DNA of 57,538 nt, counting the filler, from Sanchytrium tribonematis (taxonomy: Eukaryota), in NCBI GenBank assembly GCA_018985235.1. It is 6 parts of 6 records of this genome, joined end to end, with 100 filler letters (N's around TTAATTAATTAA, not from the genome) between each part and the next. Parts side by side here need not be neighbours in the genome. Positions count along the whole stretch, not along the records: positions 29,075 to 38,525 come from JADGIG010000328.1; positions 38,626 to 48,050 come from JADGIG010000329.1; positions 48,151 to 57,538 come from JADGIG010000330.1; 3 more parts are not named here. One strand, 5' to 3'. The position numbers and the translations under genes were made by a program. A model generated the notes under the pieces. The model did not search any database and was not told the origin of the DNA. It saw only the letters and a list, made by a program, of their open reading frames with translations. This document shows, piece after piece, positions 30,444-56,500 of this stretch. Positions within the stretch are counted from its first letter, which is position 1, and each line of letters begins with the position of its first letter.

Positions 30444-30482
30444 AAAGTCGTTTCAAAAGTTTAATGGCAAAAAATTTATAAT

Positions 30483-31424: not shown

Positions 31425-31448
31425 ACGAAATTTGCAAAGTAAAAACTT

Positions 31449-33015: not shown

Positions 33016-33053
33016 TAAATTGTATAATAATTTGGAGATTTCGAAACGAAGTA

Positions 33054-33374: not shown

Positions 33375-33473
33375 ATAAGAAACGATAATATGTGCCATTG
33401 CCAAACCCTTTAAATTTGATTTGTAATAAATTTTATAATTCGACAAGGATTGTCATTTTTGCCAATTTGAAAC

Positions 33474-34821
33474 ATGATCTTGGAATACAAAGGCACAAAA
33501 GTTGAAACTGAGCCTGTGGATGGTTGCATCTTGTCAAGTGAGCTAAAAAAATTGGGAATTAGTGGATATGATAATGGCTATGTCAATACAGCAGTATGCA
33601 AATCCCAAATCTGTTTTATTGATGGAGATGAAGGTATTTTAAGGTACCGCGGGTATGACATTGAAGAACTAGCTGAGAAATCTACTTTTTTGGAAGTTGC
33701 TTACTTGTTGATATTTGGTGAACTGCCAAATCCCAAAGAATATCAAAATTGGTCGAGTAGAATTATGCGACACACATATATTCACGAAAATATGATCGAC
33801 TACCTCAAGTCCTTCCGATTTGATTCACACCCTATGGGAATGATTGTTTCTTCCCTGGCCGCATTATCTACTTTTCACCCGGAAGCTTCACCTGACTTAC
33901 AGGGCGAAGATATTTACTCAAATGAAAAAATTAGGCAAAAACAAATCTTTCGGATCTTGGGTAAATTGCCCACTCTTGCTGCCTGCTCATATCGTCACCG
34001 AATTGGCAGAAATTACAATTACCCAAGAAATGATTTATCATACACCGAAAATTTCCTTTATATGTTAGATAGACTAAATGAGTCTAACTATACCCCTAAT
34101 CCTGTTTTATCAAGAGCCTTAGACATTATTTTAATGCTACACGCAGATCATGAGCTCAACTGCTCTACAGCGGCTATGAGAATGGTGTCATCAACAAATG
34201 TCGACCCTTTCACAAGTATGAGTGCAGCGGCAGCCGCTTTATATGGACCTAGTCACGGTGGTGCCAATGAAGCCGCGCTTAGAATGCTTGAAGAGATTGG
34301 TACTAAAGATAAAATCCCTCAATTTATTGAAGAGGTTAAACAGAAAAAACGTAGGCTGATGGGATTTGGTCATCGAGTGTACAAGTCCTACGATCCTAGA
34401 GCCAAAATACTCAAGAAAATAGCAGATCAAGTCTTTCAAGTAATGGGAAAGAGCGAATTAATTGAAGTCGCGATTGAGCTTGAAACTATTGCTTTGAATG
34501 ACGAATACTTTAAACAAAGAAATTTATATCCAAATGTAGATTTTTATTCGGGTATTATTTACAAAGCTATGGGATTTCCAACTGAGTAATTTATTCTAAT
34601 ATAGTATGTTCCCGGTATTATTTTGTCTTGGCAGGGCTCCAGGCTGGCTGGCTCATTGGTACGAGCAATTAAAAGATAACCAAATGTATGCCCCAAAACA
34701 TGTTTACACTGGTCCAGATCGAGAGTACGTCAAAATGGAAGCTAGAAAGGACTCTCGCCACGAAACGACATATAAAAGAACTTCGGAATCATCGAATATT
34801 CGTAAGAAATATGCTAAATAA
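33474..34821 (+). CDS. Citrate synthase (bacterial/peroxisomal type), two exons, 442 aa
   Basis: IDGDEGILRYRGY, HADHELNCST, HGGANE, MGFGHRVYK, PNVDFYSG. Splicing restores GFPTDMFPVLF. Confidence 0.95.
34586..34604 (+). other. 19-nt spliceosomal intron GTAATTTATTCTAATATAG
   Basis: Removal joins two ORFs into a continuous citrate synthase. Confidence 0.9.
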
Positions 34822-34824
34822 AAG

Positions 34825-35685
34825 TTAGATTTTAAAATACAAGTTTAAAAATCCGTCTTGGCCAATTGAAGCAAATCGATTTTCTGTAGCATGTGCAGAA
34901 ATTGACTGTACACTGTTAGAATGAGCTGGTAATTCATTTATCAACTCAAAATTTTGGTCAAAAATATTGATACTTCCTTCAGCAGTTCCAAAAATAATCC
35001 ATTTTTCATTAAACCCGACTTTGCATTTCAAATTCTCACTATACTTTTCAACTTCATGAAATTTGCACAATTTTCCATTATACCTGTCTAACAATCTTAT
35101 AACACCATCTTGGGATAGAGTCAAAATTCCATTATTGCTTTTTAAAATTTGAATATCGGTTATCACCGACCCAATTTCGTCTACATATAGCTGGGCTTGT
35201 CTTAAATCGTAAGTCCTAAGGATTCCATCGGCACTTCCGGTGTAAATGTATTTATCGTTGTACTCTAACGATATGACACTATCGCTGGCTTCCGAAAAAG
35301 TCTGAAGACAAGTTTTAGCTCTGATATCCCAGGCTTTCATCTCACCATCTAATGAGCTTGTAATGAGCAAATTCTCATCGCAAAATTTAACATCCATAAT
35401 TGGACTGAAATGACCAGCAAGTTTTTGAATTATAGAATGCGAGGCCACATCCCAAATAAAAGCTTGTTTTTCTCTTCCTCCAGAACATAGTTGGCTGTGG
35501 TTTGGATTGAAATGGACTGTGGAGACTTCGTATGTATGGCCTTTAAAGTTTGAAAGAATTTTGCCACTTCGGCTAGAAATAATTGAGATAAATCTATTTT
35601 GAGTTCCGATTGCTAAATATTCAAAATCTGAGTTATAGCAGATACAAGTTAAAGGCCCATTGTCTATCTGAACTTTGGACAACAT
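34825..35685 (-). CDS. WD40 protein, WDR83/MORG1-like
   Basis: GHTYEV, WDVA, AWDIR, QTFSEASDSV, GSADGILRTYDLR. First ATG at 35685. Confidence 0.8.
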   Translation of the reverse strand: MLSKVQIDNGPLTCICYNSDFEYLAIGTQNRFISIISSRSGKILSNFKGHTYEVSTVHFNPNHSQLCSGGREKQAFIWDVASHSIIQKLAGHFSPIMDVKFCDENLLITSSLDGEMKAWDIRAKTCLQTFSEASDSVISLEYNDKYIYTGSADGILRTYDLRQAQLYVDEIGSVITDIQILKSNNGILTLSQDGVIRLLDRYNGKLCKFHEVEKYSENLKCKVGFNEKWIIFGTAEGSINIFDQNFELINELPAHSNSVQSISAHATENRFASIGQDGFLNLYFKI

Positions 35686-35708
35686 AGATTGAAATTTTGA
35701 GGAGAGGA

Positions 35709-36470
35709 TCAATTTATTTGACTTTTTGCAATTTCTTCGCGTATTTTGCTACTGCTGAGTTTATCTCCATTTTTAAAATCTGGAAGTGGATCCACAAATA
35801 TCAATTGCAATTTGTTCAACCCATTTCTTGAGCGGATTTCGTTTATTTTCAACGAGTTATCGATAGTTTCTGTAGAAGCAATCAAACCGCCGATAGTTGC
35901 ATCCGAGATGGTGGGACCGTAAGGATCTTCTAAGGGTATGACATCTACCTCCTCTACAATGTCTTTTAAAATTGACTCTATTATCAATTTTCTTTCAGAA
36001 TAGCTTTGGATCAAAGACTGATGATTCTTTTTTGGCGCTTTTACGATTCCAATGGTGACTTTGTCACTAAGAAAAGCCGCTGAGTATAGCAAAAGCATAT
36101 GGCCTGAGTGTAAATGGTCAAAAGTGCCACCTAATGCAACATGGTGGATTTGTTTCTTTTGCAGTGGCATATCAGGAATAAGTTTAAGCTCAGGTTCTTG
36201 TATTTCAAATAATGGCTCAATATCAGCATGATCCTTCCAGTCCTTAGAGACTAAAATTTCGCTTAGTTCCAAATTAATCATCAATTCGGTTTTGTATTTG
36301 AATTTTGCATACTCTTTTACATAATATAATTTGAATAGAATAGCGTAAAATGATTGGAAATCTTCATCGGATATAAATTTCAAGCTTATGGATGATTTTT
36401 CAATGTCTCCGGTTAACTGATTAATTGCTCCTGAAGTCTGGTTTTTCAATGAATAGATTGTTTGTATCAT
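35709..36470 (-). CDS. CAB4: Phosphopantetheine adenylyltransferase (Cab4-like)
   Basis: LGGTFDHLHSGH, DPYGPT, INEIR, KLSSSKIR. Confidence 0.9.
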   Translation of the reverse strand: MIQTIYSLKNQTSGAINQLTGDIEKSSISLKFISDEDFQSFYAILFKLYYVKEYAKFKYKTELMINLELSEILVSKDWKDHADIEPLFEIQEPELKLIPDMPLQKKQIHHVALGGTFDHLHSGHMLLLYSAAFLSDKVTIGIVKAPKKNHQSLIQSYSERKLIIESILKDIVEEVDVIPLEDPYGPTISDATIGGLIASTETIDNSLKINEIRSRNGLNKLQLIFVDPLPDFKNGDKLSSSKIREEIAKSQIN

Positions 36471-36599
36471 CCCTCAAGTTAAAGTTGAACCAATTTAGGT
36501 AAAATTTTAGTTTGATTAAGACTTTAAGTGAATATAGTAGAGAACAAGTGGAAATAAGCTCTTTGCTGAGAAGTTTTTCTAAATTTGAAACAACAAAAA

Positions 36600-37379
36600 A
36601 TGTCAATTGAAGCTTGGAATATTGTACTAGCATACAGTATTGGATCTCGCAACTACAAGGATATATGGAGTATCAGATCAATTAACAAAACGCTATACAA
36701 TTTAGCAAATAGCGTCATTCCATTAGAGTACTTGATTACAAGCTGCGAAAAATGTAGACATTGTGGCCTCGAAACTAAACTATTGCAGCCAAATGACAAA
36801 TTCTACAGGATGTGTAAGACATGCTTAAAATGCCATTATAGGCTTTACGATATGGTGCTCCATAGAGATGTGGTGGAATTGTACGCTTTAAAAAAAGAAC
36901 ACGTTCGAAACTGGATCAATTTGGGATTGCTTAAAGGCAAAGGTTCTTACTTTTGCGGGATCACAGCTAAGAGATTGGCTCTCCAACATTACGAGAGCGA
37001 TGAAGCACTGAAAGCCGCTTTAAAGAGAAGAAATCGATTCAAAATAGGCGCCCAAAAGGCCAACAAAACTAAGCTCGAGCGTAAAATGAAAAAAATGGAA
37101 GATAAAAAGGCAGCTAGAGAAAAATCCAGAGTGGAAAAGAAACTTGAACAAGAACTTTCTGTGGTCGAGCTAAAAACCACAACTCAAATTTCAAAGCCTA
37201 AAATTTATGCACAATTCCAAGTCTGTTCCAGCGCGGTTAAAAGAGCACAATTTCTATTCGAAGCTGCAGCGAAAAGAAATATCAAAATTAGCACATGCAA
37301 AATCGTGACTTGCTTCTTGTTGGGCAAAAGTGAAATGACTCTCTATGAAGTCTTGGATGCAATGGAAAAAGTGAAATAA
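36600..37379 (+). CDS. Hypothetical basic protein with an F-box-like N-terminus and CxxC motifs
   Basis: MSIEAWNIVLAY...IRSINK; CRHC...CKTC; lysine-rich helix. Confidence 0.6.
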   Translation: MSIEAWNIVLAYSIGSRNYKDIWSIRSINKTLYNLANSVIPLEYLITSCEKCRHCGLETKLLQPNDKFYRMCKTCLKCHYRLYDMVLHRDVVELYALKKEHVRNWINLGLLKGKGSYFCGITAKRLALQHYESDEALKAALKRRNRFKIGAQKANKTKLERKMKKMEDKKAAREKSRVEKKLEQELSVVELKTTTQISKPKIYAQFQVCSSAVKRAQFLFEAAAKRNIKISTCKIVTCFLLGKSEMTLYEVLDAMEKVK

Positions 37380-37391
37380 AAGTTGTATTTA

Positions 37392-38490
37392 TTAAGCAGT
37401 TTGATGAATTTTGTGAAACATTTCTTCCGTTGTCATTAAATGAGAGACCTTGTCTATAGAGTTTAACATATTTTCAACATTTGAAGTCCAATCTTGCACA
37501 GAATGTTGTGGCTTCTCAAAGGTAATAATTTGGGTAAGTCTGTCAATTTTACAGGTAATAATTTTTTTAGTGACCAGATCGCAAACAATTTGCTCAAGTT
37601 GATCCACTGGAATTTTAAGCAAAGACGCCATGTGTGTCATATTGATTCTATAGTAATACAAACTCATGACTCTGACATTCTAAATTAAAAAAAATTACAT
37701 GCTGCTGAATTCTAAGCTGTAATATCTCATCAGGAAAAGAGATGTTTTCAGTGATGAGTTCATTTCCAACAACCTGTTTCAAAAAGCTCTTGAATGGGTG
37801 GTCATATTTAATCAATTGCTGCAGTTCATGGATTTGCTCCATTGAATATTCTGCAAGAAATGTGTAGAAACAATTTTTTAAATTTTCAGATGACTTTTCC
37901 AATTGATATAAAGTGGCATAAGTTTGCCCCAATTTTTGAAAATTTTTGACAGCTAGATAATACTTTGCCAGTAATTGGTAATATGTCTTATTTTCAGCTG
38001 GATAATCTTTAAGGACATTCATGTTTACTTTTTTGGCTAGTAATTCGACCTTGCTAAATTGTTGCAATTTCACTAAACATTCAAATTGTTGAAGTATAAA
38101 TGATAATTTCTCATATCTATCAAGTTGAATCGTGTCAATGTTCACATCCAGTAATTTTGAAGGATCATTTTTGCTGAGTAGTAAAACAATTTTTGCATAT
38201 TGACCTTCTAAATAAATCTTATTTTGAGTCACATCATATAAATCTAACAACTGTTTTTGGGACGGATTTTTGGTATCCAAAATATGCTGCACAATCTTGG
38301 AGATATTTTGTTTAATTAGCCCGTGTTTATTAGCAATTGTGGCTAGATCTTGGGCCAAGTCTTTAGAACTATCGACAATGTGTTTGATAATTGCATAATT
38401 TTCGTCTTTAAGCTGGTTGTTGCGGCTGTATTTTTCATACTGAAAGTAAATTTTGGAGTCATTTGATTTCAAAGCCTCGGCAAGTTGCAT
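37392..38490 (-). CDS. RPN5: 26S proteasome lid subunit Rpn5/PSMD12 (PCI domain), two exons, 359 aa
   Basis: KHGLIKQ, KIYLE; splicing gives QQHNVRVMSLYYYRI; CKIDR; HLMTTEEM. Confidence 0.88.
37680..37698 (-). other. 19-nt spliceosomal intron GTAATTTTTTTTAATTTAG
   Basis: Restores the Rpn5 HN.RV..YY.RI motif. Confidence 0.9.
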
Positions 38491-38525
38491 GGAAAGGAGT
38501 TGTAAGAAAAATTATCAATTTTATT

Positions 38526-38625
38526 NNNNNNNNNNNNNNNNNNNNNNNNNNNNNNNNNNNNNNNNNNNNTTAATTAATTAANNNNNNNNNNNNNNNNNNN
38601 NNNNNNNNNNNNNNNNNNNNNNNNN
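38526..38625. other. Artificial contig spacer
   Basis: 44N-TTAATTAATTAA-44N. Confidence 0.98.
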
Positions 38626-40135
38626 TTTCTAATGAGTTGCAAAATAGTTTGTATTTTTTAATCAAGGAATATAAATCAGTATCAAATCGAAATTCAACAT
38701 CATGTTCTGTATCATCGTGGTCAAATGGCAAGTCCAATTTGAAATTTTCTCTTTTGAACTGATTGTGTAGAAAATAGTTTGTGTGCAGTACGGGAGAATT
38801 TCCGAAATTGTTAAAAATGTCCCTTCTATACTCTTTATAATTGGACATATGTATATGCCAGATGCATGCGATGTCTGCAGGTAAATCCATTTCCTCATAA
38901 TTGTCATTTTGATTCAAATAATTTAAAAATATAATATATCTTTGAATAGCAATATGGAGATGATGCGGATCTCTTAGTATATTGGATTTATAAAACATTT
39001 GATACAAAGCATAATTTTGACTCAATTCGGCTGAAGTGAAAGGAACAAAATCAAATGAGTCTTCCATCAAAAATGAATCATGCTTTAAAAATTTTTGAGC
39101 TAAATTTGGAACTTTGGCAAAAGCCACCTCTTTAACAAAGAGTGAAACGACAGTTCCATAATCTTTTTTGCTTTTAAAGTAAGAATATACTAAAAACTGA
39201 TTTGTTTTCCAACCATCTTCATGCTGCAATTCGCAATTTTCTAATTTTATCTTTGGCCAAAATTTAGAAAAATCCTTGGGACTAATTGAATTACTGTTCA
39301 ATTTTTTCACAAGTAGGTGCCATTTTATCATTGCAGAATGACAAGACTCGACAATTAAAGGATAGTCAGCAGGATCATATGAATACTCTAAAGTTTTCCA
39401 GTTAATATCTACATTTACATAATCATAAAGCATGCTTAAATGTAGGCAACTAATAGCATCCAAAGTTGCTTTTTTTCTCTTTAAATTGTTAAGACCATTT
39501 TTAAAATAGTTTTGCACTTGTTTAAGATCAATAAAATTCAAAATCGAAGTTTGATGTAAATAATTTAAATAATACCAAAGATCTTGATATCCGTAAGAGC
39601 TTCTACACCCCGTGCAATTTTCAATATAAACAGTATGACATAGGCAGCATGTTTGAATCATCGATTTGCAGCATCCGGTGCAAGTTTTATCTGTATTCAT
39701 AGTCCCACAATAATGGCATTCATGCAAAAATATATCTGGTGATTTATGTTCAAGTAGTATTGTAGATAAACAAGCTGCACATTTGGGCTTGATATTCATT
39801 GAATGACAATTTGGGCAAGATTGTAATGGTAAAAAGCCACATGCCTGGCAATAAAATCCTCGAGTCATAGTTTGACACTTTGGACAATCAAATATTTCCA
39901 GGGAATAAAGACCACATGCAATACAGGATTTATCGCTATTATTGATAGTTTGACAATGCTCACATGTCCATAATTCCATATCCGCAAAAGGAAATGCCAA
40001 TGCGTAATTACACGCCGTACATTCGGGACCCATACTTACGGTGCCACATTGACAATAATTCATTATGAAGTTATCACATGCGCTGCAGCTCTCTGTATTG
40101 AGACTAATTGTATGGCACAACGCGCAACTTTGCAT
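38626..40135 (-). CDS. CxxC-repeat protein with a GRDP/DUF1399-like domain, 3' truncated
   Basis: About 180-aa array of CxxC pairs; AIQRYIIFL and PADIACIWHIHM motifs. Confidence 0.65.
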
Positions 40136-40284
40136 TAATTTCAAGGAGATATCCTAAATCTAAAATTACGGGCGAAATGATTTTGTGACGATTCTGGTAA
40201 GTTGTTGCGCCTGACAGTTGCATATTTGAGGATATTTAGGATTTTTGTTTCCCCAAATTAATTTTCACCCCCATCTAAACATTC

Positions 40285-40795
40285 ATGAGCTCGATTCATG
40301 TCCCACATCTTTATGATAAAATAATTTCTAATACGATCGACAAAATGAGATCAGAATTCGAAAATAGCGGTATTCCAACTAGCGTTTTAGTAGAATTGAA
40401 TGCAAAATGGAGAACAAAACTTCACCAACCTAACCAAACTCAACGTAATTTAACCCCACCATCAGATGATGAGGAAGACGAATATGCGGACCATGCAAAT
40501 AATTACTACAATGGCTTCCAAGTAGATGGAGATCTACATTTGCCATACGTGGCGAATATTGCTCCAACCCCACCACCCATGCAAAGCAACAACGAATTAC
40601 CTAGCGAGACCAGTAGCGATGAAGATGAAATGATAAATGATAAAATACTCTGTCAATTTGAGAAAGTAAGTCGCACTAAGAATCGTTGGAAAACTAATTT
40701 TAAAGATGGTAAAGATAATTAACTTAGGAATTATGAATTTTAATGGGACAGATTATGTTTTTCACAAAGGAACTGGAGAGTTTATTTTTCAATAA
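40285..40795 (+). CDS. TOA1: TFIIA large subunit (Toa1), two exons, 163 aa
   Basis: LYDKII...FENSG...W..KL; QVDG; LCQFEKVSRTKNRWK; splicing gives KDGIMNFNGTDYVF. Confidence 0.93.
40709..40727 (+). other. 19-nt spliceosomal intron GTAAAGATAATTAACTTAG
   Basis: Restores the conserved TFIIA C-terminus. Confidence 0.92.
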
Positions 40796-40823
40796 AGTGA
40801 CAATAAGGTTTAAACTTTGTTTC

Positions 40824-43800
40824 ATGCTTTTCCAAAAAATGAAAAGTATGGGAATTCCATTAATACCGCAAGAATGGAATTCACATTTATTTAAGCAGTC
40901 TAATATATACCCTACTGAAGAATTGTCTAGTTTGAGCCTCAAACACCTTGAAAAACACTTACCAACAAGATCTACAAATGAAGTCGTTGTACCTAATTTG
41001 AAACTTCCTCCTTTAGCTGGTGGCTCATTAAAAGATCATCTTTACACAATCGGGCAATTGTATTTAAACCCAACTCAATCCCTCGTAAATGAAATAATCG
41101 CAAGTAACGTTAAAAAACCCCTGAAGTGGTCTACAAAACCTGGATGGTCTAAATATATGGGTGAGGTAATTGAAAAAGTTCCATACCCCAATGAAAAAGT
41201 ATTTGTATTCGATACGGAAGTACTAGTCCCACAATCCAAATACCCAATTTTAGCAGTTGCGAAAAGCTCCAAATATTGGTACTCTTGGTGCGCACCGTGG
41301 TTCCATCTAGATGCAATTGAGAATGATACAGAACAAATTTCGACTGAAATTGAAAAATTCCCAATAGAAGAAAAATTAATATCTTTTGGAAACAACGATA
41401 CAAAATTGTTTATAGGTCACATGGTTTCTTTTGAAAGAGCTAAAATATTGCAAGAGTATCTTTACTTTCCTACAAAATACCAATATCTGGATACGCTGAG
41501 CATGCATATTAGTGTTTGCGGGCTCAGTAGTCAACAAAGAACCTCATTCATCAAGCAAAAAAAGATAATGGATCTTCCTGCACCAGATTTTAATGATCCG
41601 ACCAAGCTTTTAGATTGGAATGATCTTCAACCAGACAAATGGGTTCAAGAATCTTCTATGAACAGTCTTTTACATGTAGCTAAATTTCACTGCGATATAG
41701 ATCTCAATAAGTCTATTCGTGATATCTTTGTGAAAGGTAATTTGGAAGAAGTTCAACAAAATGCACAAACTTTATTTCAGTATTGCGCAGAAGATGTAGA
41801 GGCTACACATCAGGTTTTCAAAGCTGTGTATCCAAAGTTTCTCAAAAAGTGTCCCCATCCTATTTCCCAAGCAGGTCCGATGATTATGTCCAAGTCGTTT
41901 TTGCCCGTAAGCAAAAGATGGGATGATTTTGTGGAAATAAATGAAGCAAAAACTAATGCTTTACAATTTAGGATCGAGTCTCGACTCAAAGAATTAGCAT
42001 TAGAAGCGTTAGACAAAATTATTATTAGAGGCCCCCTATTGCCTGTTGAAATCCTTGAAGGCGTCAACTATTCCACTCCGTTGGAACTGGAAAGATACGA
42101 GTTTTGTTCAGTCGACACTAAATTATTGATGCAACATCCCCATTGGTGTTTTTTGGACTGGAGAATGCCCAGCGCAAAATATACCAAAATCGGCATGCCA
42201 TACAAAGGACAGAAACTGCGGAATTATCCTTTGTGGGTTCACCAAATTATAGCTGGAAATGAAATCAAAATATCTATGAAAGTCAAAACTGCAGTTTATT
42301 TGATGGAGGCAAAACTGGAAAAACAATATGTTTGGTATCATCCGAATGAAGGCTACTGTCTTTTGACGCAGTCTCAAGACGTTTTGGAGAAATATAAACA
42401 TTTAACTCAATTTCCATTTGAATCAAATTTTCGTAGCAGCTATAAGGGTAAGTCTGCTTTGGGCTATGATAGTAAAACAAAGACAGTATCAAATTATGAG
42501 GACACTGAAGAATCGATTTTGGATGCGTATAAAAATTACAATGTTATTAGACTCAGCTCTGAAAAAACAATTATGGGAACATTTTTTACAAAATCAATCG
42601 GAAAAAAGAAAAGCATTTTAAGTTGTAAAGACTCGGAATGTTTAGAAAATATCATATTACTAGCTAATAATGCTTCTTATTGGGTGAGTGCGAGAAAAAG
42701 AATAGAGTCGCAGTTTATAGTGCCTGCTAAATCTATGCCCGATAACAAAGGCGTTATAATGCCTATGATTGTTCCTTGTGGAACAGTCACACGAAGAAGT
42801 GTCGAGCCAACATGGGTGACTGCTGCCAACGTCAAAAAAGGAAGATTTGGAAGTGATTTAAAGATGCAAATTCAAGCACCAAGCGGATACAGTATAATTG
42901 GCGCAGACGTTGACAGCGAGGAACTATGGATTGCTTCTTTGCTTGCAGATGGTCAATTTGAGGAGCATGGAACCAGTGCTATCGGATTTATGACGTTGCA
43001 AGGTCAGAAGAAAGACAAAACTGATATGCATAGTGTCACAGCAAAGCTTGTCAACATAAGTAGAGATGAGGCAAAAGGTTTCAACTATGCGCGGATTTAT
43101 GGAAGCGGGGAAAAACATGCAGCTAGAACATTAGAATTGGGACAAAGTATCAGTAAAGAAGAGGCTGATGAAAAGGCCAAACAACTTTTTAAAGGTACAA
43201 AGGGTATGAGGCTAGAATTTAGAGCCGAAGGACTTAAACTTCCAAGACGAGTTTGGTGTGGTGGTACTGAATCTTTGATGTTTAATGTTTTAGATAATGC
43301 AGCGGAATTGCCAGAGCCCTGTACTCCCACACTTCGCGCAGTCATACCTGATAGTTTACTTCCAAGAAATGTAGATCGAGATTTCGTAACAACTAGAATC
43401 AATTGGATTGTTCAAGGTAGTGGTGTGGATTATTTACACATGCTCCTTGTGTTGATGAATCACTTTATTCAACAATCTGGAATTGATTGCAAATTTATGC
43501 TCAGTGTACATGACGAAATACGATTTCTTTGCAATAACGACGATATTTACAAGGGCGCTTTGCTTTTGCAATACAGCAATTTGATTGTCCGTGCGTTTTT
43601 TGCAGAATCAATTGGAGTTGAATCTCTACCATTGAGTTGTAGTTTCTTCAGTGCCATTGATGTTGATACGGTGCTTCGCAAGGAACCAACAATCTCAAGT
43701 GAAACATTTCCTGAAATTCCAATTGGTAAAACAATTGATATTTATGACATTGTGAAGAACATAGACTTTGACAATTTTCAATTGAATGGGGTGAATCAAG

Positions 43801-44072
43801 TTTACGAGGCACCAGAAACTAAAAAATACTTGGACCTTGTCTTTCCTTTTGTAAAATTGTCTAAAGATGCCCACATGAAGTGGATTGAGATGCAACTAGC
43901 GGAAGACAAGGACGAATTTTATAGGTTGGGAAAAGAGCTGAGAGTATTGGTCAAGAATTTGGATCCTAGAAAAAGTACATTGAAACCAGTTCCGTTCAGA
44001 ACTATAAAAAAAATAAGAAAAATACGGCCTATTCCTGAAAATGACAGGTCATGTGTAAAAATTGTAAATTAA
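40824..44072 (+). CDS. MIP1: Mitochondrial DNA polymerase gamma
   Basis: VFDTE exonuclease motif, GTVTRRSVEPTW, GADVDSEELWIA, FNYARIYG, SVHDEIRF. Start placed at 40824 because 40743-40795 is TFIIA exon 2. Confidence 0.95.
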   Translation: MLFQKMKSMGIPLIPQEWNSHLFKQSNIYPTEELSSLSLKHLEKHLPTRSTNEVVVPNLKLPPLAGGSLKDHLYTIGQLYLNPTQSLVNEIIASNVKKPLKWSTKPGWSKYMGEVIEKVPYPNEKVFVFDTEVLVPQSKYPILAVAKSSKYWYSWCAPWFHLDAIENDTEQISTEIEKFPIEEKLISFGNNDTKLFIGHMVSFERAKILQEYLYFPTKYQYLDTLSMHISVCGLSSQQRTSFIKQKKIMDLPAPDFNDPTKLLDWNDLQPDKWVQESSMNSLLHVAKFHCDIDLNKSIRDIFVKGNLEEVQQNAQTLFQYCAEDVEATHQVFKAVYPKFLKKCPHPISQAGPMIMSKSFLPVSKRWDDFVEINEAKTNALQFRIESRLKELALEALDKIIIRGPLLPVEILEGVNYSTPLELERYEFCSVDTKLLMQHPHWCFLDWRMPSAKYTKIGMPYKGQKLRNYPLWVHQIIAGNEIKISMKVKTAVYLMEAKLEKQYVWYHPNEGYCLLTQSQDVLEKYKHLTQFPFESNFRSSYKGKSALGYDSKTKTVSNYEDTEESILDAYKNYNVIRLSSEKTIMGTFFTKSIGKKKSILSCKDSECLENIILLANNASYWVSARKRIESQFIVPAKSMPDNKGVIMPMIVPCGTVTRRSVEPTWVTAANVKKGRFGSDLKMQIQAPSGYSIIGADVDSEELWIASLLADGQFEEHGTSAIGFMTLQGQKKDKTDMHSVTAKLVNISRDEAKGFNYARIYGSGEKHAARTLELGQSISKEEADEKAKQLFKGTKGMRLEFRAEGLKLPRRVWCGGTESLMFNVLDNAAELPEPCTPTLRAVIPDSLLPRNVDRDFVTTRINWIVQGSGVDYLHMLLVLMNHFIQQSGIDCKFMLSVHDEIRFLCNNDDIYKGALLLQYSNLIVRAFFAESIGVESLPLSCSFFSAIDVDTVLRKEPTISSETFPEIPIGKTIDIYDIVKNIDFDNFQLNGVNQVYEAPETKKYLDLVFPFVKLSKDAHMKWIEMQLAEDKDEFYRLGKELRVLVKNLDPRKSTLKPVPFRTIKKIRKIRPIPENDRSCVKIVN

Positions 44073-44076
44073 ACAT

Positions 44077-47000: not shown

Positions 47001-48050
47001 CAATTATGTCAGAATATGGTATATCGTTCAAGCCAAACATAAAAGAAAATGCAGATTTCTGCATCTCCTTCTGCTGCCTTACGAACGGGACTTCCCACGC
47101 AATATATTCACTATTGATGATCAATGAGTTTCTAAAGCCATTATATTTTCTAAATTCGTCAAAAGAATGCAGCACATCGTTGACAAATACCCCATCTTTA
47201 CAATGCCACTTCCATTCTGAATTTTTAAATAGAAATGAAATACCACTGCTCCTATCCGGACAAATTGGAGTCTGGTTTGCAAACTTACTACCCAAAATGC
47301 GAACTCGAAGTGAAGCATCTTTTAAATTTAAATTAAAATTTCCATGGACCAGCCACCTTAGAATATCAAACCATTTCAGAGGCTCCTTTTGAAATGGAGA
47401 TTTGGGTTGCAATGCACCGAAACTTCTACTAACATATCTCAGTGCACTTTCATAACCTGGTCCATGGGTCATGTTCATCTCAGTATGTTCCAAGAGGTTC
47501 ATCTCGAAATTAATAAACAACTTTAAAGGTTGCCAAGATTTTCTGAGTTTGTAATCTAAAATCTCAATCTCAATTGTTTCGTCTATTTGACTCTCGTTAG
47601 TACCTAAAGCAAAAGTTCCAGATATAGAAAATGCATCCCTTCTATCGCCAATAATGCTCATTAATGGAAACATATAATTCCTCAATTTAACGACTGCTTT
47701 GCTTGCCGAAAAATGAAAATTTCTAAAAGCCTTAAATTCATAAAGATTCTGACTGTTTTCTACATTTTTCATAAAGCTCTGAAGGTCATAGGCTGGCGTT
47801 GTTTCCATTTGAAATTGGTCGAGAGCATATGTGAGCAATGGAATTTGAACAGGGGTCTTATCGCTGCTAAATGGCTTTATAAAATTCCTATACTCTCTAG
47901 AAATATCTTCTTTAAACATCTTATTTAGTTGAATATAATAATCGCTCATGTACTCCAACAGTTCATAGTATTTTTGTTTCAAATCTGCATTTTCCTCGAC
48001 AGAAAACTCCTTGTGCTGATTGTGATGTAACGGATTGCTATGCATGGTCT
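44077..48050 (-). CDS. Fmp27/Hobbit/BLTP2 bridge-like lipid transfer protein, C-terminal part (5' truncated)
   Basis: PAVAGIGVVDHFEVDIAPIRLQMT, MKMRA..N.TF..IRIP, EYQDKTWTYLDF (Apt1 region); LKWFDILR.LVHG. Confidence 0.85.
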
Positions 48051-48150
48051 NNNNNNNNNNNNNNNNNNNNNNNNNNNNNNNNNNNNNNNNNNNNTTAATT
48101 AATTAANNNNNNNNNNNNNNNNNNNNNNNNNNNNNNNNNNNNNNNNNNNN
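48051..48150. other. Artificial contig spacer
   Basis: 44N-TTAATTAATTAA-44N. Confidence 0.98.
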
Positions 48151-49032
48151 CCACCAACTTGTACCTTGCCCCTTAATTATTATAATTTACCATAGCCTAC
48201 ACTTTTCACAACCTACGCAATTCATGATTTCAGATATATTATAAAACTTTTGCTGCAAATTGATAAGAAAATTTCCTTTCAAGACTTTTTCATTAAAAAT
48301 AGAATATTTCATGGCTGGACATTCTTTTATAGAAAGTAGCAATTGATCGGTAAGAGATTTAATATGGAAATCTTCCCACTCATTCCCAGTTATTATATTT
48401 ATCATACTTTCTTTCATTTTGAATAACGATTTGGTCATCATGGTATAGAGGGCAAACATATTTTTAATTCGCTCAGGATATTTGCCGATCCTATCAGTAT
48501 AACAGGTTGAATTTGCTTTAAATGTCTCATCTTTATCATCAAAATATTCACCGCATACATGCATGCTAATAGACGTGTGTAATCCACTAATTAATTGATA
48601 AAATAACATTGTTTCTTTGCAGTAATACGCTGATTTTGTAAACTTCGAAGGGATGTCAAAACAATTTTCTTCGTAAATAGCATTCCATACTTGATGAGCA
48701 GAATCGCCAGCATATCCTGTGTATCTTTCCGGATTTTCTATAAGATCTATCACATACCCAGGATCTTCTTCTATATTACAAAACGGATTATTAATTTTGA
48801 TTTTTTCAATCTTGACAGTGTCAATGTCTACTTTTCTCTGCTGAACTGAGCAATCCTTTCGACTACACATTCCATCATCCACCCAAAATGGACAGTCTTG
48901 AAATAAGTTCACACTGACGAAACGGTAATAATCAGTAGCTATAAGAGATTGGAGTGTAGGGTAGATATGAGTATTAATATGCAGAAGATCTTGAATTTTA
49001 TCAGCAAAAAGTAAATTTGCAAATAAAATCAT
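48151..49032 (-). CDS. ERO1: ER oxidoreductin Ero1, with an intron, 3' truncated
   Basis: CPFW..DGMC, DLIENPERYTGY, ISGLHTSI, MNCVGCEKCRLW|GKVQ. Confidence 0.95.
48172..48190 (-). other. 19-nt spliceosomal intron GTAAATTATAATAATTAAG
   Basis: Restores CRLWGKVQ. Confidence 0.9.
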
Positions 49033-49105
49033 GTTTCAACTTTCAAATGTAATTCGGAAATACTTTAAAATGAGGTCAGAATTACTTCGAAGATGAATGG
49101 AGGCT

Positions 49106-49393
49106 TTATTTAGGTTTAGAACTAGGTGCTTTTCCTTGTTCTTTTTGAACTTGCTGACGGTATTGTTCAATGGCCTTTTCAACCCTCTCTTTTTCTTTGC
49201 TAATAAAATCAAGTCTCTTTCTCACATTTTGTACAGCTTCATCATTTTCTATCAAGGTAAGGCCAATTCCTCTAACTTTAAATACTTGGCATTCTTCATT
49301 TAACAGCTCCAATTCTTTCAGTACTAATTGATTTTCATTGATCTGGGTGGTTAGAGTATGTAAGCTTTGTATTTGTTTTTGAATGTCAGCCAT
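49106..49393 (-). CDS. Prefoldin subunit 6 (Yke2-like)
   Basis: Q.NEN..V.KEL, VFK..G, EA.QNVRKRLDFI..E. Confidence 0.85.
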   Translation of the reverse strand: MADIQKQIQSLHTLTTQINENQLVLKELELLNEECQVFKVRGIGLTLIENDEAVQNVRKRLDFISKEKERVEKAIEQYRQQVQKEQGKAPSSKPK

Positions 49394-49416
49394 TTTCTAA
49401 TTTTTGCTTGAAGGGG

Positions 49417-51132
49417 ATGGCACAATTAAATAAAAAATTCAAAGCTGAAAATTCATTTGAGTGCAACGTGGGAATATTCAAAAGTTTGAATGCAAATGTG
49501 ACACTCAAGGCAAACATTAAGAGTGAAGTGTTCGACTTCATTGTGAAGGAAGTTGATTTAACGAAAAATGTAGTTCAATTTAATCCTCTAGCAGAATTGC
49601 CAAATTTGCCTCAGACTGAAGAGGCAGAGAATTGGAAGAATACTGTTATAACGACTAACTCTGTATTTCAAAAGTACTACACAGCGGATGAGCTAGAAGA
49701 TTTGTCACAAAAAATTGAGACTATATTAAGTAATAAAAATGGTCAATTAGAATTGAAACCGATTAAAGACAAATTAGATAGAACAAGCATTCACAAATTG
49801 TTCAAGTCTGTGACTAATATACACTCGAAAGCTGATAATGGACTGATCAAAATTAAATACGGAAATGAAAGAGCCAAGGGACGATCTATTAACTGGAAAG
49901 AGCTGGGAGGAGACTTTTTACAATTCAGTCTGGCAAAGTCTAACATAGATACAATACAAGCAATAAGCGAGATCAGCAGAAAATCAAAATTAACCACAAA
50001 GAATTTTTCGTACGCTGGCACAAAAGATAAAAAGGGATGCACAGTCCAAAATGTGAGAGTGTATAAAACTTTACATACCAAGCTACTTAATTTGAAATTT
50101 CAGTTTGATAATGAGTTTAAAAAAATTGCATTGAGCAATTTTGAATATAGATCTAAGCAATTGCGATTAGGCGATATTTATGGAAATAACTTTACTGTTG
50201 TTTTACGTGAAATTACGCTAAAAAGTACGAGAGACATAAGCGATGATCGCATTTCAATCTTAAATGATTCTTTCGAGCATTTAAAGCAATTTGGCTTCAT
50301 AAACTATTTTGGGCTTCAAAGATTTGGCCATTCGTCTGTTGGCACAGAAGAATTTGGGAAATTGGTTTTACTAAAGGATTGGAAAGGATTAATAGACCTA
50401 CTGCTTAAACCAAGATCCAACGAGACAGAAAAAGTAATGGTAGCTAGACATAACTTTTCCTTAAATCAAGACTTTGAGGAAGCTCTCAAACTATTTCCGA
50501 GAGCCTGCCTGGCAGAAAGATCAATCTTGATGCATTTGAAAGATAACAGGAATGATTTTTATGGAGCATTTATGAAAATTCCTCGAAATTTAAGAACTTT
50601 GTACGCACATGCGTTCCAGTCCTATATTTTCAATCACATGGTGAGCAAAAGACTGGAACTGTACGGTAATAAGCTAGTTGAAGGAGATTTAGTCATAGAT
50701 TGTACAAACGAAACAGATAGACACGATAACGGTGTCAAGTCAATTATTCCTTTAATAATTACGTCCGAAAATATTGGGAAATTCAGTATTTATGATTGTG
50801 TGTTGCCTTGCCCTGGATCAGAAACTATGTATCCTTCAAATATGGAAAGATATTATGAAGATTTTTTAGAATCTCAGAATTTGAACACCGAAATTTGGGA
50901 AGATGATTCGCAATTAAATTTATCAGGCACATATCGCCATATCGTTGCAAGGGCCGAAGATCTCAAATGGAAAATATTTAAATACAATGACATCCAACCC
51001 ACAGAACGGATATTTCAGCATGATGCAGTTGACTTTGACATAGCTGATGGCAAAAATTTAGGAGTCAAAGTTCAAGTTACCTTAAAAACGTCAAGCTACG
51101 TCACCATGATGTTAAGGGAAATTATTTGTTGA
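49417..51132 (+). CDS. PUS7: Pseudouridine synthase Pus7/TruD family
   Basis: YAGTKDK, LGDIYGNNFTVVLR, GFINYFGLQRFG, HAFQSYIFN, SSYVTMMLRE. Confidence 0.93.
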   Translation: MAQLNKKFKAENSFECNVGIFKSLNANVTLKANIKSEVFDFIVKEVDLTKNVVQFNPLAELPNLPQTEEAENWKNTVITTNSVFQKYYTADELEDLSQKIETILSNKNGQLELKPIKDKLDRTSIHKLFKSVTNIHSKADNGLIKIKYGNERAKGRSINWKELGGDFLQFSLAKSNIDTIQAISEISRKSKLTTKNFSYAGTKDKKGCTVQNVRVYKTLHTKLLNLKFQFDNEFKKIALSNFEYRSKQLRLGDIYGNNFTVVLREITLKSTRDISDDRISILNDSFEHLKQFGFINYFGLQRFGHSSVGTEEFGKLVLLKDWKGLIDLLLKPRSNETEKVMVARHNFSLNQDFEEALKLFPRACLAERSILMHLKDNRNDFYGAFMKIPRNLRTLYAHAFQSYIFNHMVSKRLELYGNKLVEGDLVIDCTNETDRHDNGVKSIIPLIITSENIGKFSIYDCVLPCPGSETMYPSNMERYYEDFLESQNLNTEIWEDDSQLNLSGTYRHIVARAEDLKWKIFKYNDIQPTERIFQHDAVDFDIADGKNLGVKVQVTLKTSSYVTMMLREIIC

Positions 51133-51281
51133 ATAAATTTTTTGAACATTGAGATTTCCATATTCTGTTCTAAATTTAACAATTTAATTTCAATCTTAAA
51201 ATTTAACTCTTCCCCGGCCACATGTTTTTTTGGATTTTAAAGAAAACAATTGTGAAAACCGAAAACACCCCTTTTTGATAA

Positions 51282-53571
51282 ATGAACCAAACCGTTAATC
51301 AATTAATTGTCGTTAGCAATCGGTTGCCTATTACCATAAAAGCCGAAAAGGATGGTTCTTTTAAATACAGCATGTCCTCTGGAGGTCTTGTTAGTGCTTT
51401 GAGTGGATTAGCAAAAGAAATGACATTCAAATGGATTGGTTGGACAGGAATCGAAATTCCTAAAGAGAAACAGGCCCAAGTTATTAGGGAGTTGGCAGAT
51501 TTAAATTGTGTTCCGGTTTTTATGCCAGACGATGTCGCAGAATTATTTTACAATGGATTTAGTAATTCAATTATTTGGCCATTGTTCCATTATACACCGG
51601 GAGATCTTAACTTTGATAATAGCATGTGGGAAGCGTATAAGCATGCGAATCATCTATTTGCTGATACTTTGAGAGAAATTGTTACTGAGAAGGATATGAT
51701 TTGGGTTCAAGACTATCATCTTATGTTATTACCCGAAATGTTACGGCGGCATAACCCTTATTGTCACATTGGATTTTTCTTACACACCCCATTTCCAAGT
51801 AGTGAGGTCTATCGAATCTTACCCGTTCGAACTGAAATTTTACATGGCTTATTAAATTGTAGTTTGATAGGATTTCACACATTTGATTATGCGAGGCATT
51901 TTTTGAGTAGCTGTACTCGAATTTTGGGTTTACAAACATCACCAAATAGTGTTGAGTATAAAGACAGGCGTGTTGCAGTTGGTGTATTCCCAATTGGAAT
52001 TGACCCCGATAAATTCAAAGAAGGATTGACAGAAAACGAAAACATTAAAAAAAGAATTTCTAGTTTGAAAGCCAAGTTTGGAGATGTCAAAATTATGGTT
52101 GGTGTTGATAGATTGGATTATATTAAAGGTGTGCCGCAAAAGCTACATGCTTTCGATGCTTTTCTTAGCAAGCATCCCGAATGGATTGAAAAAGTGATTT
52201 TGGTTCAAGTAGCTGTGCCATCTAGAACAGATGTAGAAGAATATATACAATTGAGAAACAACGTGAACCAACTAGTTGGAGAGATCAACGGTAAGTACGG
52301 TACAATTGAATTCAGCCCAATTCACTTTTTGAACAAGTCAGTTAATTTTGAGGAATTGACAGCTTTGTACGCAGCCAGTGATGTATGTTTAGTAACTTCT
52401 ACCAGAGATGGAATGAATTTAGTAAGCTACGAGTATATTTGCTGTCAGGCAAACAAACATGGCGTCCTTGTACTGAGCGAGTTTGCGGGTGCTGCACAAT
52501 CAATGAATGGAGCTATAATAGTTAATCCCTGGAACACTGAAGAGCTGGCGCAGGCCTACAATGACGCACTTACAATGACTCCTGAAAACAAAAAATTAAA
52601 CCACGAGAAACTTTATAGATATGTTAACAAATATACGGCCGCTTATTGGGGTGTTAGTTTTGTGAACGACTTCAAGAGAGTAATAGAGGAATCTGAGAAT
52701 CATGGAGAACTGAAGCTCTTGCAACCTAGTTTGGTTTTGCAAAACTTTTCCAAGGATGGTAAAAAGGTCATTTTGCTTGATTATGATGGGACATTGACAT
52801 CAACAAATAAGATGCCTGAATTTGCAAGTCCTTCGGCTCACTTGCTGTCATCATTAACTCGACTTTCAAACATGGAAAATGTTTATGTCTACATCTTGAG
52901 TGGTAGAAGTAGAAGCTCATTAGATAAATGGTTTGGAGAGACAGGAATTGGACTAGTAGCGGAACATGGCTGCTTTTATAGACATCCGCAAAAAATTAGA
53001 GGTGATTTAACTCCAACTGGCGATACAATATTGATGCAAGAAAAGCAAGCAAAGCCTTCGTTAATCGATGACAAGTGGATCAGACTAGTAGATGAAATCG
53101 ATATGAGCTATCGCGAAACTATTCGACCATTATTTGAACACTTTCTCGAACGTACTCCAGGCAGTTACATTGAGGAAAAGGAGGTATTTTCGATTGATTT
53201 AGATAAATATAACTTGGCACTACAAAAATGCTGATCCCGAGTTTGGGAGATGGCAGGCGGCAGAACTACAAGTCAATCTGGAGAAATTACTTTCTCACAT
53301 CCCTTTAAGCATTGTGTTATCTCAAAAGTGTCTTGAACTTAGACCCTGCAATATTGACAAAGCCATTGCCTCCAAATCCATTTTGCATGATCTGGGTACT
53401 AATGACTTTGTTCTTTGTGTTGGTGACGGTAAAACAGATGAAGCAGTTTTTGAATTACTTGCAGATCAAAAGTCAATCACCGCAACTGTTGGTAAGAAAC
53501 GCAGTACGGCTCAGTATTATCTGGAAGACGTATATGCTGTACAGGATTTGCTTGATTTGTTAATTCAATAA
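51282..53571 (+). CDS. Trehalose-6-phosphate synthase/phosphatase fusion, two exons, 756 aa
   Basis: VSNRLP, DYHL, HTPFPS, VDRLDYIKG, RDGMNLV; HAD motifs LDYDGTL and GDGKTDE; splicing gives EEKEINITWHYKNADPEFG. Confidence 0.95.
53184..53202 (+). other. 19-nt spliceosomal intron GTATTTTCGATTGATTTAG
   Basis: Restores the TPP WHY..ADPEFG motif and joins the ORFs. Confidence 0.92.
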
Positions 53572-53573
53572 AT

Positions 53574-56500
53574 CTATTTACTTGAAAACCGTTCTACATT
53601 GCTCATTCCATCTTTAAATTTGGTTTTAAATAATACATCTGCGTTGGTAAACATGCCTTCTTTCAAACTGACAACAATAAACTGGGAGCCACTGAATCTG
53701 GTTCTCAAAATTTGACCAATATTCTGAGTGTGGGATAAATCCAGAGCTAAATAAAAATTAATGTACCAGCATCAACTTCGTCCAATACATAAAGTGGCGA
53801 GGTCTTGAATTTCAAAAGACTCAAAATTAAAGAGATGGCCACAAGTGAACGCTGACCACCACTTAATTCACTTAAGGATTCCTTCCATTTGCTGTTTAAT
53901 TGGACTTTAATTTCACAACCGTCCACAACGCCAGATGGGGAAGGCACAAGCCGAGCTGTAGATCCAGGCAGAATCCCTGCTAGTATTTGACCAAAAGAGT
54001 CAGTGACTTGTTTCCAGGTGGAATCAACTGCTGTCAACTTATGTTTGTCAAGCTCTTCAATAGCTCCCTCGATCTTAATTTTATCGCTCTGGACAGTCTT
54101 GAGCATTCCACCGAGTTTCAACTCTTCCTGTTCAGCAACATCTATCATACTCATTACCTGTTGGTTAACATTGACTTTCAGCTTATCGTGCAATTCCTGC
54201 AGCCGATCAAGTTCTTCTTTTTGAGAGTCAAGGTTGTCATTAATTTCAATTTTTAAAGGGTTCCGTTTTTCCAGCTCCACTATACGCTTTTTTGTTTTGG
54301 ATAATTCGTCCCTCCAAACTTTACATTGGTGAGTAATTTCTTTCTCTTTAACTTCTAAATCTTCAACCTGAGAAGTATAAGTTTGTTTTGAGTTATTCAA
54401 GATATTAATTTCGTGTTTGTATTCATTACTTTGAGCAATCGCTTGATTATAGGTTTCTTCGATTGTGACAAATTTTGATTTCAAACCTTGCAATTCAAGT
54501 TCTATTTTGCTTCTCTCGCGATTAAGTTCCTGAGATTGAAAGTTAAGCTCCGAAAATTTAGACTCGCAATTCTTGATATCACTGTCAAATTGCTGTTCAA
54601 CAGATTGAAAGTTTTCATAGGTATTTTGAATAATTTCATAGTTTTTAAGTGCAAAATTGTATTCGTGCTGAACTTTGGCAATGTCTTGTTTAATTTGTTG
54701 TGCATTTCCCTGTTGTTTGGTGAGTTTTTGGGCATTTTGGCAGCTTTCAAGCTCTTTTTGAATTTCCAAAAATTCCTCCTTTTTGGTGTTCAGTAATTTC
54801 AAATGTTCCTCGCCGTCGAGCTTGGCCTGGGCATGATTGCCTTGATGCCTTTCTTTTTCAACCATGGTAAACTCTCTCAATTTTTCTTGTAAAATCAGCT
54901 GATAGTCATGCAGAGTTCTGGATTTTGTTTGCAATTTATGTTTTGCCTGTTGGACGGAGTCTTTTTTTAAATTCAAAGTAGACATTTGGTTCTCTAAAAT
55001 ATGGATTTGATTAAAACGTTGCATTAAGAGCTCTTTAGGTTTTCCACCTCCACTAACTGTCCCACTTGGGTCGTAAACATCTCCCTGTAACGTTATGCAC
55101 TTCATCAGTACGTTTTTGTCGAAAGCAACCTGTTCGGCAACCTTGCTAGATTCTGCAAAGAGTACATTACCAAAACAATAATCTATGCATTTTCGATACT
55201 CCTCAGGATAATTTATAATATCATGAACCGAGTAAATTTTATCACTTATCCTCTTGGCATATTCTACCTTTGACATTGTGATAGACTTAGACTGAAGAGT
55301 GTTCATGGGGACGAAACTAGTTCGCATTTCAAGTTTAATATTCTTTAAAATGAATGCGGCAACTTCATCTGTTGAAACAACACAATGCTTTAATTTGTTA
55401 CCTCCTGCTATTGATATTGCAAGATTAAACTTATCGTCGCATGAAATAAAAGTCCCAATACAACCAAAAATGTTATTTTTTAAATTAGGATATTTTAGTG
55501 GCAAATCCTGTAAAAAATAGACACCGCGCAGAGGACGCTTTAATTGAAAAATTTGTGACTCGACCTGTTTAAAGCTTTGTTCCAGTTTTTTAACTTCTTG
55601 GTCATGTTTCAAGTCTTGAGCATTAAAGTTGCCAAATTGAGCTGTCAAGCCTGTTAGCAGAAGCTGCACTTGACTCTTGAAATCTTCGAGTTTAAGCGGG
55701 TCGTTGCCATTGAAATGCCGAATTTCATCAGTTATTTTCTGGGATTGATCTATGATTCTTGACTTTGCCTGTTCCAGATCACGCAGATGTTTGTCAGCCT
55801 TGTCAAATCGGGACTTATGAAAGGAACCCCATTCTTTTTCGAGCAGCTTCAATTCATTTTGAACATTCTCAAAAGCCGAATGGGTCTTCTTCAATTTTTG
55901 ATTTATGCGCTCTATTTCAACATCTAACTCTCCATTTACCATACTTGAAAGAATTTGCAGCTGTTGCTCTGAATTTTCTTTTTCAGATTTGAGCTGGTCA
56001 AATTGCCTTTGAACATCAGATTTTGAGTGCAAATGAGACTCGAACTGAATTTTTAAGTCGGCCAATTTTTTACCCTCGTCACACTTCTCCTGAGATAGCA
56101 CACTTAAGTCTTTAAGCAACATATTCAGATTGGTTTCTTGTTTTGTTATCTTATTCTGGGTATCCTTGTGCTGGCGTTCCAGGCTTTTGTCGACCAAGTT
56201 GGTAGTATTTTTGGTTTTTAGCAACTTCATTTTATCTAAAATTTCAGTGATTTTGGATGCGAGAAGATTTTTTTCCATAGTTAATTGCTCAATATGGATC
56301 TCTTTCTCCTTATATTCGGCGTCTACTTTCTCAAAATGGCTAAGTCTCAAGCTATATTCCAGATTCATGACATACTTGGTTTTTTCTTCCAGTTCCACTG
56401 AAACTCGTTTCAATTCCATATAATCGTTTCTTTGTTTTTGATATTGCTGAATTTTAGGCAGTAAATCATTTTCTAGCGTATCTTGAATTTCCTGAACTTT

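What the first reader, a model, noticed from the sequence alone, without database searches (positions are those of the whole stretch)
34586..53766. Ultra-small 19-20-nt spliceosomal introns in a fungus-like nuclear genome
Seen: six conserved genes are each broken once, and removing a GT..AG piece of 19 nt (citrate synthase 34586-604, RPN5 37680-98, TFIIA 40709-27, ERO1 48172-90, TPS 53184-202) or 20 nt (SMC2 53747-66) exactly restores a conserved motif and the reading frame. A seventh 19-nt candidate lies in ATG13 (29582-600). No longer intron was found. Established: introns this short are known from heterotrich ciliates (15-16 nt) and the chlorarachniophyte nucleomorph (18-21 nt); fungal introns are normally much longer. 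Inference: an independent origin of a fixed-length mini-intron system, implying a modified spliceosome.
Basis: partly seen in the sequence, partly recalled or inferred. Interest (0 to 1): 0.88.

Follow-up and report, generated by a model that had tools for sequence, protein, structure and literature searches.

The report
19-base introns in sanchytrid fungi
Core genes of this small alga-parasitising fungus (a sanchytrid) are interrupted by stretches of only 19-20 bases that are very likely spliced out as introns, apparently shorter than any typical intron reported for fungi or animals, and the public protein sets checked here stop short at them.

Summary
Confirmed. All seven GT..AG segments (six of 19 nt, one of 20 nt) lie at the stated coordinates. 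Removal restores gap-free alignment or profile continuity in citrate synthase, RPN5, TFIIA, TPS and SMC2; ERO1 is cut by a contig end; ATG13 rests on motif alone. All seven share GTA, T at -8 and A at -6, a branch-point-like signature with Stentor's geometry. The organism groups with Amoeboradix gromovi (Sanchytriomycota). A. gromovi ORFs break at the same three sites tested, decoding to 20 nt (citrate synthase) and fitting 19 nt (TPS, SMC2); unnamed relatives fit 19-22 nt. The RPN5 intron matches a human PSMD12 intron position, so it is an old intron that shrank. All seven lie in the last 27% of their genes. No RNA data were available, so splicing is inferred. I found no report of sanchytrid introns; the published genomes were annotated with an intron-blind ORF caller. 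A. gromovi's annotation keeps U1-70K, U2AF and BBP; Slu7 and Prp18 were not found (weak lead). The scan noted 26-37-nt fungal introns on other DNA (Rozella, Neolecta), not these. Tiny introns are a known kind; this is a new, independent fungal origin.

The parts
34586..34604 (+). 19-nt intron, phase 2, in citrate synthase (CDS 33474-34821); putative branch A at 34599
   Evidence: same site in A. gromovi, decoded as 20 nt
37680..37698 (-). 19-nt intron, phase 0, in RPN5/PSMD12 (CDS 38490-37392); same position and phase as the human intron after c.1083
40709..40727 (+). 19-nt intron, phase 1, in TFIIA large subunit (CDS 40285-40795)
48172..48190 (-). 19-nt intron, phase 2, AAG acceptor, in ERO1 (CDS from 49032, runs off the contig end at 48151)
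   Evidence: exon 2 almost wholly outside the window
53184..53202 (+). 19-nt intron, phase 0, in the TPS-TPP fusion (CDS 51282-53571)
   Evidence: same site in A. gromovi, fits 19 nt
53747..53766 (-). 20-nt intron, phase 1, in SMC2 between Walker B and D-loop (CDS 57073-53574)
   Evidence: same site in A. gromovi and two unnamed lineages
29582..29600 (-). 19-nt candidate intron, phase 0, in ATG13 (CDS 30443-29453); weakest case
   Evidence: full motif; spliced stop lies 18 nt from the neighbouring gene's stop; exon 2 has no Pfam match

Best explanation
These are very likely genuine major-class (U2-type) spliceosomal introns, shrunk to 19-20 bases in a sanchytrid fungus and predicted to be removed through a 14-15-base lariat closed on a branch adenosine six bases from the intron end. 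Shown: GT..AG ends, GTA start, T at -8, A at -6, pyrimidine at -5, restoration of conserved proteins, shared positions in relatives and, for RPN5, in human. Inferred: U1/U6 read the short GUA donor, U2 pairs loosely with the U-rich U-N-A-Y branch site, and the acceptor is simply the first AG, a fixed five bases after the branch A, with no room for a separate pyrimidine tract. At that distance yeast needs no Slu7/Prp18, so their loss would be tolerated (untested). Origin (inferred): most ancestral introns were lost, and survivors were eroded by deletion to the smallest size this spliceosome handles, convergently with ciliates, mikrocytids and nucleomorphs.
For: Homologue and profile continuity. 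Invariant 3' signature, 34 of 200,000 shuffles. A. gromovi read-through peptide of citrate synthase is explained by a 20-nt intron followed by 9 out-of-frame exon-2 codons, with the motif allowed (only 41 nt, explaining 2 codons, was also feasible); the same decoding returned 19 for the window's own TPS intron as control. Relatives' tails fit 19 nt (A. gromovi TPS; SMC2 x4 rows), 20 nt (P0244), 21 nt (P0367, read by hand) and 22 nt (P0002). Human PSMD12 has a donor after c.1083 = codon 361 and window exon 2 starts at human residue 362. A. gromovi annotation holds PRP8, SF3B1, U2AF35/65, BBP, U1-70K, Prp40, Luc7, Prp5, Prp21, Brr2, Snu114 and DEAH helicases. Stentor introns have the branch A at 10 of 15 and 11 of 16, also -6.
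Against: No transcript evidence was obtained. Only 57.5 kb of the genome was seen, so longer introns elsewhere are not excluded. Relatives' intron lengths are decoded from protein tails, not read from DNA; for most rows longer lengths are also feasible. The branch A is inferred from conservation only. ATG13 and ERO1 lack a full homology test. Small introns of microsporidia are often poorly spliced, so efficiency here is unknown. The TPS tree was a quick single-gene tree and did not resolve the clade's place among fungi.
Confidence: 0.9

Rival explanations
1. Sequencing, amplification or assembly errors create the breaks.
For: The assembly is fragmented and the only DNA run that holds the stretch may be its source.
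Against: Errors do not produce GT..AG segments with a shared internal motif, at the same codon in A. gromovi and unnamed relatives and at a human intron position. X1 contigs show no indel there.
Confidence: 0.01
2. The introns are real but make up only the short tail of a broader length distribution, so there is no mini-intron system.
For: Only 7 introns from 6 contigs were seen; P0002 needs 22 nt or more and several relatives' lengths are not bounded above.
Against: 7 of 7 are 19-20 nt; no supported longer intron among 180 ORF-extending GT..AG candidates of 12-60 nt; long genes (POLG, Hobbit, PUS7) are unbroken; the best-constrained relative case is 20 nt.
Confidence: 0.06
3. The segments stay in the mRNA and are bypassed by recoding (frameshift, hopping, editing) or removed by a non-spliceosomal route (protein nuclease, DNA excision).
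For: 19 nt is far below the size usual for the spliceosome; no RNA was seen.
Against: Canonical ends, branch-like motif, an ancestral spliceosomal position and an annotated spliceosome in the sister genus; mere frameshifting would add about six residues inside invariant motifs and 4 of 7 segments hold stops; no DNA contig lacking the segments.
Confidence: 0.03

Closest known systems
Heterotrich ciliate (Stentor coeruleus) 15-16-nt introns (PMC9505925, passages read)
   Same: GUA start, U-rich interior, branch A six bases from the 3' end, U2-type; most core spliceosome kept
   Different: Shorter (10-11-nt lariat against 14-15 here), over 8,000 introns against about 0.2 per kb here, unrelated lineage
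Mikrocytid (Mikrocytos mackini) 16-17-nt introns (PMC10245619, passages read)
   Same: Parasite with few hundred introns in a very narrow size range
   Different: Rhizarian; strongly reduced spliceosome (17-19 proteins); none in metabolic genes, whereas citrate synthase and TPS carry them here
Chlorarachniophyte nucleomorph 18-21-nt introns (PMC6009652, passages read)
   Same: Same length class, GT-AG, AT-rich
   Different: Relic endosymbiont nucleus, very dense introns, no discernible branch A; here a true fungal nucleus with sparse introns and a clear -8/-6 signature
Short introns of other opisthokonts: Encephalitozoon cuniculi about 25 nt, Rozella about 30 nt (PMC6349667), Hamiltosporidium mean 28 nt (PMC10542269), myxozoans median 22-27 nt (PMC13644364, first third read)
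   Same: Parasitic opisthokonts with compact genomes and introns under 30 nt
   Different: All longer in typical length; E. cuniculi's first-described set is 5'-biased in ribosomal protein genes, whereas these sit near 3' ends; separate origin, sanchytrids being placed with Blastocladiomycota in print
Fixed branch-point-to-AG distance in intron-poor eukaryotes (PMC2483917, passages read)
   Same: Acceptor anchored at a set distance from the branch site, no pyrimidine tract
   Different: There the branch motif is strong (WCTRAY) and introns are longer; here it is reduced to T-N-A-Y

Membership tests
U2-type spliceosomal intron | GT..AG boundaries | tested here: met
   7 of 7
U2-type spliceosomal intron | Removal restores the conserved reading frame | tested here: met
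   5 of 7 by homologues or profiles; ERO1 partial; ATG13 not testable by homology
U2-type spliceosomal intron | Branch-point adenosine in a yUnAy-like context | tested here: met
   T-8, A-6, Y-5 in 7 of 7; 34 of 200,000 shuffles; sequence signature only
U2-type spliceosomal intron | Position shared with established introns of distant eukaryotes | tested here: met
   1 of 1 tested: RPN5 equals the human PSMD12 intron after c.1083; other six not tested
U2-type spliceosomal intron | Absent from mature mRNA; lariat formed | not testable with these tools
   no RNA holder listed
U2-type spliceosomal intron | Organism encodes the major spliceosome | tested here: inconclusive
   core proteins annotated in sister genus A. 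gromovi; window's own genome not available; no snRNA in the window
U12-type (minor) intron | RTATCCTT donor and TCCTTAAC branch site (motifs recalled) | tested here: not met
   none of the 7 has them
Ultra-short intron system (Stentor/mikrocytid/nucleomorph type) | Essentially all introns of the genome in one narrow size class under about 22 nt | tested here: inconclusive
   7 of 7 in 57.5 kb; relatives fit 19-22 nt; genome-wide count not possible
Reduced spliceosome (microsporidia, mikrocytids, Cyanidioschyzon) | Loss of U1 snRNP, U2AF35 and many factors | tested here: not met
   U1-70K, Prp40, Luc7, U2AF35, U2AF65, BBP annotated in A. gromovi; Slu7, Prp18, Prp28, U1C, SF3b14 not found, absence not proven
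Sanchytriomycota | Groups with a named sanchytrid | tested here: met
   A. gromovi is the closest named relative: 87% (CS), 81% (TPS), 52% (SMC2) against at most 75%, 64% and about 31% full-length for others; TPS clade SH-aLRT 100

The most novel reading that the evidence does not exclude
The whole phylum Sanchytriomycota has only 19-22-nt introns, the shortest of any fungus or animal, kept almost solely near gene 3' ends and spliced by a spliceosome that retains U1 and U2AF but has shed the second-step factors Slu7 and Prp18 and finds the acceptor by distance from the branch point.
Probability: 0.3. Interest if true: 0.86.

Novelty: new variant of a known kind. Interest (0 to 1): 0.72.

Why it matters
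It adds an independent origin of near-minimal introns, inside the fungi and so much closer to yeast than ciliates, mikrocytids or nucleomorphs; sanchytrid spliceosomal proteins could be compared with and tested in yeast to ask what sets the lower size limit of an intron. Convergence with Stentor on a branch A at -6 points to a structural floor. The 3' position bias runs against the usual pattern in intron-poor genomes. In practice, the public sanchytrid proteins checked here are truncated at these introns, so gene-loss and domain inferences for this phylum may need rechecking.

Tried and rejected
Whole genome: none held, so no genome-wide histogram or snRNA search. RNA: no RNA holder listed; this is no evidence either way. 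Metagenome pattern scan for a short intron at the citrate synthase site gave 4 matches, all chance and not citrate synthase; no relative's DNA was obtained. Protein atlas gave no answer. Other motif matches in the window (13067+, 12110+, 36499+, 47893-, 35645-, 27688+) have no homology support or lie in intact frames or on the antisense strand and were rejected or left open. A scan of 39 ORFs for 5' introns found none with the full motif. Rfam found only one tRNA. The careful tree did not finish; the quick tree was used, on 30 chosen TPS rows of 123 held. U12-type, recoding and assembly error were considered and rejected. Earlier notes by place and by sequence gave nothing relevant.
Full report
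Window. The 57.5 kb are six contigs of about 9.5 kb joined by N-padded spacers, GC 34.6%. Contig 1 is transposon debris; contigs 2-6 are densely packed eukaryotic genes, with gaps of 12-149 nt between most neighbours measured. POLG and IFT20 point to a flagellum-bearing opisthokont.

Observation. All seven segments are present as described. Splicing gives a 442-aa citrate synthase that aligns without a gap to 116 of 119 homologues (two end earlier, one breaks at the same site) and restores the SMC2 Walker B/D-loop run found contiguous in 116 of 119 homologues. Pfam positions continue across the junctions: citrate synthase 326/327, TFIIA 395/396, SMC_N 169/171, trehalose phosphatase 113/115, each as expected from the split codon or ORF start. 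RPN5 exon 2 aligns from human residue 362. After splicing, convergent neighbours nearly touch (TPS and SMC2 stops 2 nt apart, citrate synthase and the WD40 gene 3 nt). ERO1 exon 2 is cut by the contig end after 7 codons; ATG13 exon 2 has no family match and is the weakest case.

Aligned on the 3' end, 7 of 7 have T at -8, A at -6 and a pyrimidine at -5, and all start GTA. Shuffling intron interiors gave an invariant T.A pair in 34 of 200,000 trials. The full 19-nt motif occurs 9 times in the window, 6 of them the reported introns, against 3.2 expected (3 of 200 controls reach 9). This is the yUnAy branch-site core at a fixed distance from the acceptor.

Organism. The best citrate synthase, SMC2 and TPS relatives are, or cluster with, EukProt proteins named Amoeboradix gromovi, at 87%, 52% and 81% identity. 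A quick TPS tree of 30 chosen rows groups the window, A. gromovi and three unnamed ENA proteins on a long branch with SH-aLRT 100; the clade's deeper place is unresolved. The window is thus a sanchytrid but not A. gromovi; Sanchytrium tribonematis is the probable species, being the other sequenced member with a published GC of 34.64% (PMC8371127 Table 1; inference).

Relatives. Their proteins were called without introns, so they read into the intron and stop. A. gromovi breaks at the same codon in 3 of 3 genes tested. Its citrate synthase tail is explained by a 20-nt intron followed by nine out-of-frame codons of the conserved exon 2; 41 nt (two codons explained) was the only other feasible length from 10 to 45. 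The method returned 19 nt for the window's TPS intron as a control. A. gromovi TPS fits 19 nt (24 and longer also feasible). In SMC2, four rows from three lineages (P0124, P0125, P0243, P0126) all stop at intron positions 12-14, as a TAA or TGA branch site of a 19-nt intron would cause, though other lengths are feasible. P0002 needs 22 nt or more; P0367 (RPN5, 74% identical) fits 21 nt or more (read by hand). P0244 and P0246 lack the window's TPS intron but break 11-12 codons further on, P0244 fitting 20 nt. So the class is 19-22 nt, narrow but not single-valued, and intron positions still differ between lineages. These lengths are inferred; no relative's DNA was seen.

Age. Human PSMD12 has a splice donor after c.1083, codon 361 (c.1083+1G>A listed in PMC13292365 and PMC11364055; passages), the same position and phase as the 19-nt RPN5 intron. 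A distant unnamed RPN5 (P0369, 31% identical) also breaks there. At least this intron is ancestral and shrank; the other six were not tested.

Artefact check. No RNA holder was listed.

Position. The introns lie at 0.73-0.95 of their coding sequences (ERO1 overestimated by truncation). No 5' intron with the full motif was found in 39 ORFs, about 38.5 kb of coding sequence, and long genes are otherwise unbroken, giving about 0.2 introns per kb. Intron-poor genomes usually keep 5' introns (recalled; stated for E. cuniculi). With n = 7 this is a lead; coupling of last-intron recognition to 3'-end processing is one untested explanation.

Mechanism. Likely U2-type splicing with a 14-15-nt lariat loop and five bases between branch A and exon 2. 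Stentor has the same 3' geometry. In yeast Slu7/Prp18 are not needed when this distance is under 7-9 nt (PMC3392075, PMC10158995; passages). The published eggNOG table of A. gromovi (supplement file 4 of PMC8371127; the stored copy is cut early in the second species' sheet) lists PRP8, SF3B1, U2AF35, U2AF65, BBP, U1-70K, a U1A/U2B'' protein, Prp40, Luc7, Prp5, Prp21, Brr2, Snu114 and Prp2/16/22/43-type helicases. Slu7, Prp18 and Prp28 were found neither by KEGG nor KOG id (the first two also not by name); U1C and SF3b14 not by KEGG id. The ids were recalled, and only about half of the proteins were annotated, so this is a lead, not a loss. The spliceosome is not of the heavily reduced microsporidian kind.

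Known or new. Tiny introns are known from Stentor (15-16 nt), mikrocytids (16-17), chlorarachniophyte nucleomorphs (18-21), myxozoans (median 22-27), E. cuniculi (about 25), Hamiltosporidium (mean 28) and Rozella (about 30). Searches joining sanchytrid names with intron or splicing terms (22, 6 and 4 papers; listings seen) and general searches showed no report of sanchytrid introns. I read passages and the annotation section of the genome paper, where 'intron' occurs once, in a reference title, and ORFs were called with TransDecoder on contigs, and passages of PMC10459994, PMC13262936 and PMC8476143. Its Supplementary Information PDF and one spreadsheet were too large to read, PMC10406608 was not opened, and subscription papers are not searched; a mention could be there. 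The window's truncated citrate synthase, TPS, SMC2, TFIIA and ATG13 ORFs stand verbatim in EukProt, so the public proteome ignores these introns.

Verdict. Real and very probably spliced; a new independent origin of ultra-short introns, with typical length below any reported for fungi or animals in the papers seen. Genome-wide uniformity, splicing itself and spliceosome changes remain to be shown. Interest 0.72.

Noticed in passing
window 29582-53766 (all seven introns): All lie in the last 27% of the coding sequence, opposite to the usual 5' bias of intron-poor genomes.
   Followed up: partly
P0244, P0246 (TPS of unnamed relatives): They lack the window's TPS intron but break 12 and 11 codons downstream, at sites 3 nt apart: possible intron sliding or separate gains.
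   Followed up: partly
window 51282-57073: TPS and SMC2 are neighbours here and also consecutive ORFs on one A. gromovi contig (NODE_238): conserved microsynteny.
   Followed up: no
window 17436-19255: Two overlapping ORFs (421 and 194 aa) in different frames with no Pfam match; a 17-nt GT..AG could join them but lacks the branch motif. Frameshift, pseudogene or foreign insert.
   Followed up: partly
window 14023-16016: ORFs without Pfam match; 14604-15701 looks by eye like a tyrosine recombinase of a mobile element, preceded in frame by a stop-separated ORF.
   Followed up: no
window 1-9650: Decayed LTR-retroelement (integrase) and DDE transposase fragments.
   Followed up: no
window 23945-24017 (-): One tRNA gene without intron (Rfam RF00005).
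   Followed up: no
window 37392-38490 (-): RPN5 is only 359 aa against about 445-456 in yeast and human.
   Followed up: no
window 29090-29434 (+): IFT20 retained, in line with the published partial IFT-B set of sanchytrids.
   Followed up: no
window 36499-36520 (+) and 13067-13085 (+): Full-motif 22-nt and 19-nt GT..AG segments outside called coding regions; possible UTR or non-coding introns, or chance.
   Followed up: partly
run X1 on window 29075-38525 and 48151-52423: Contigs differ from the window at scattered sites, some at lower depth: alleles or a second strain; none falls in an intron.
   Followed up: no
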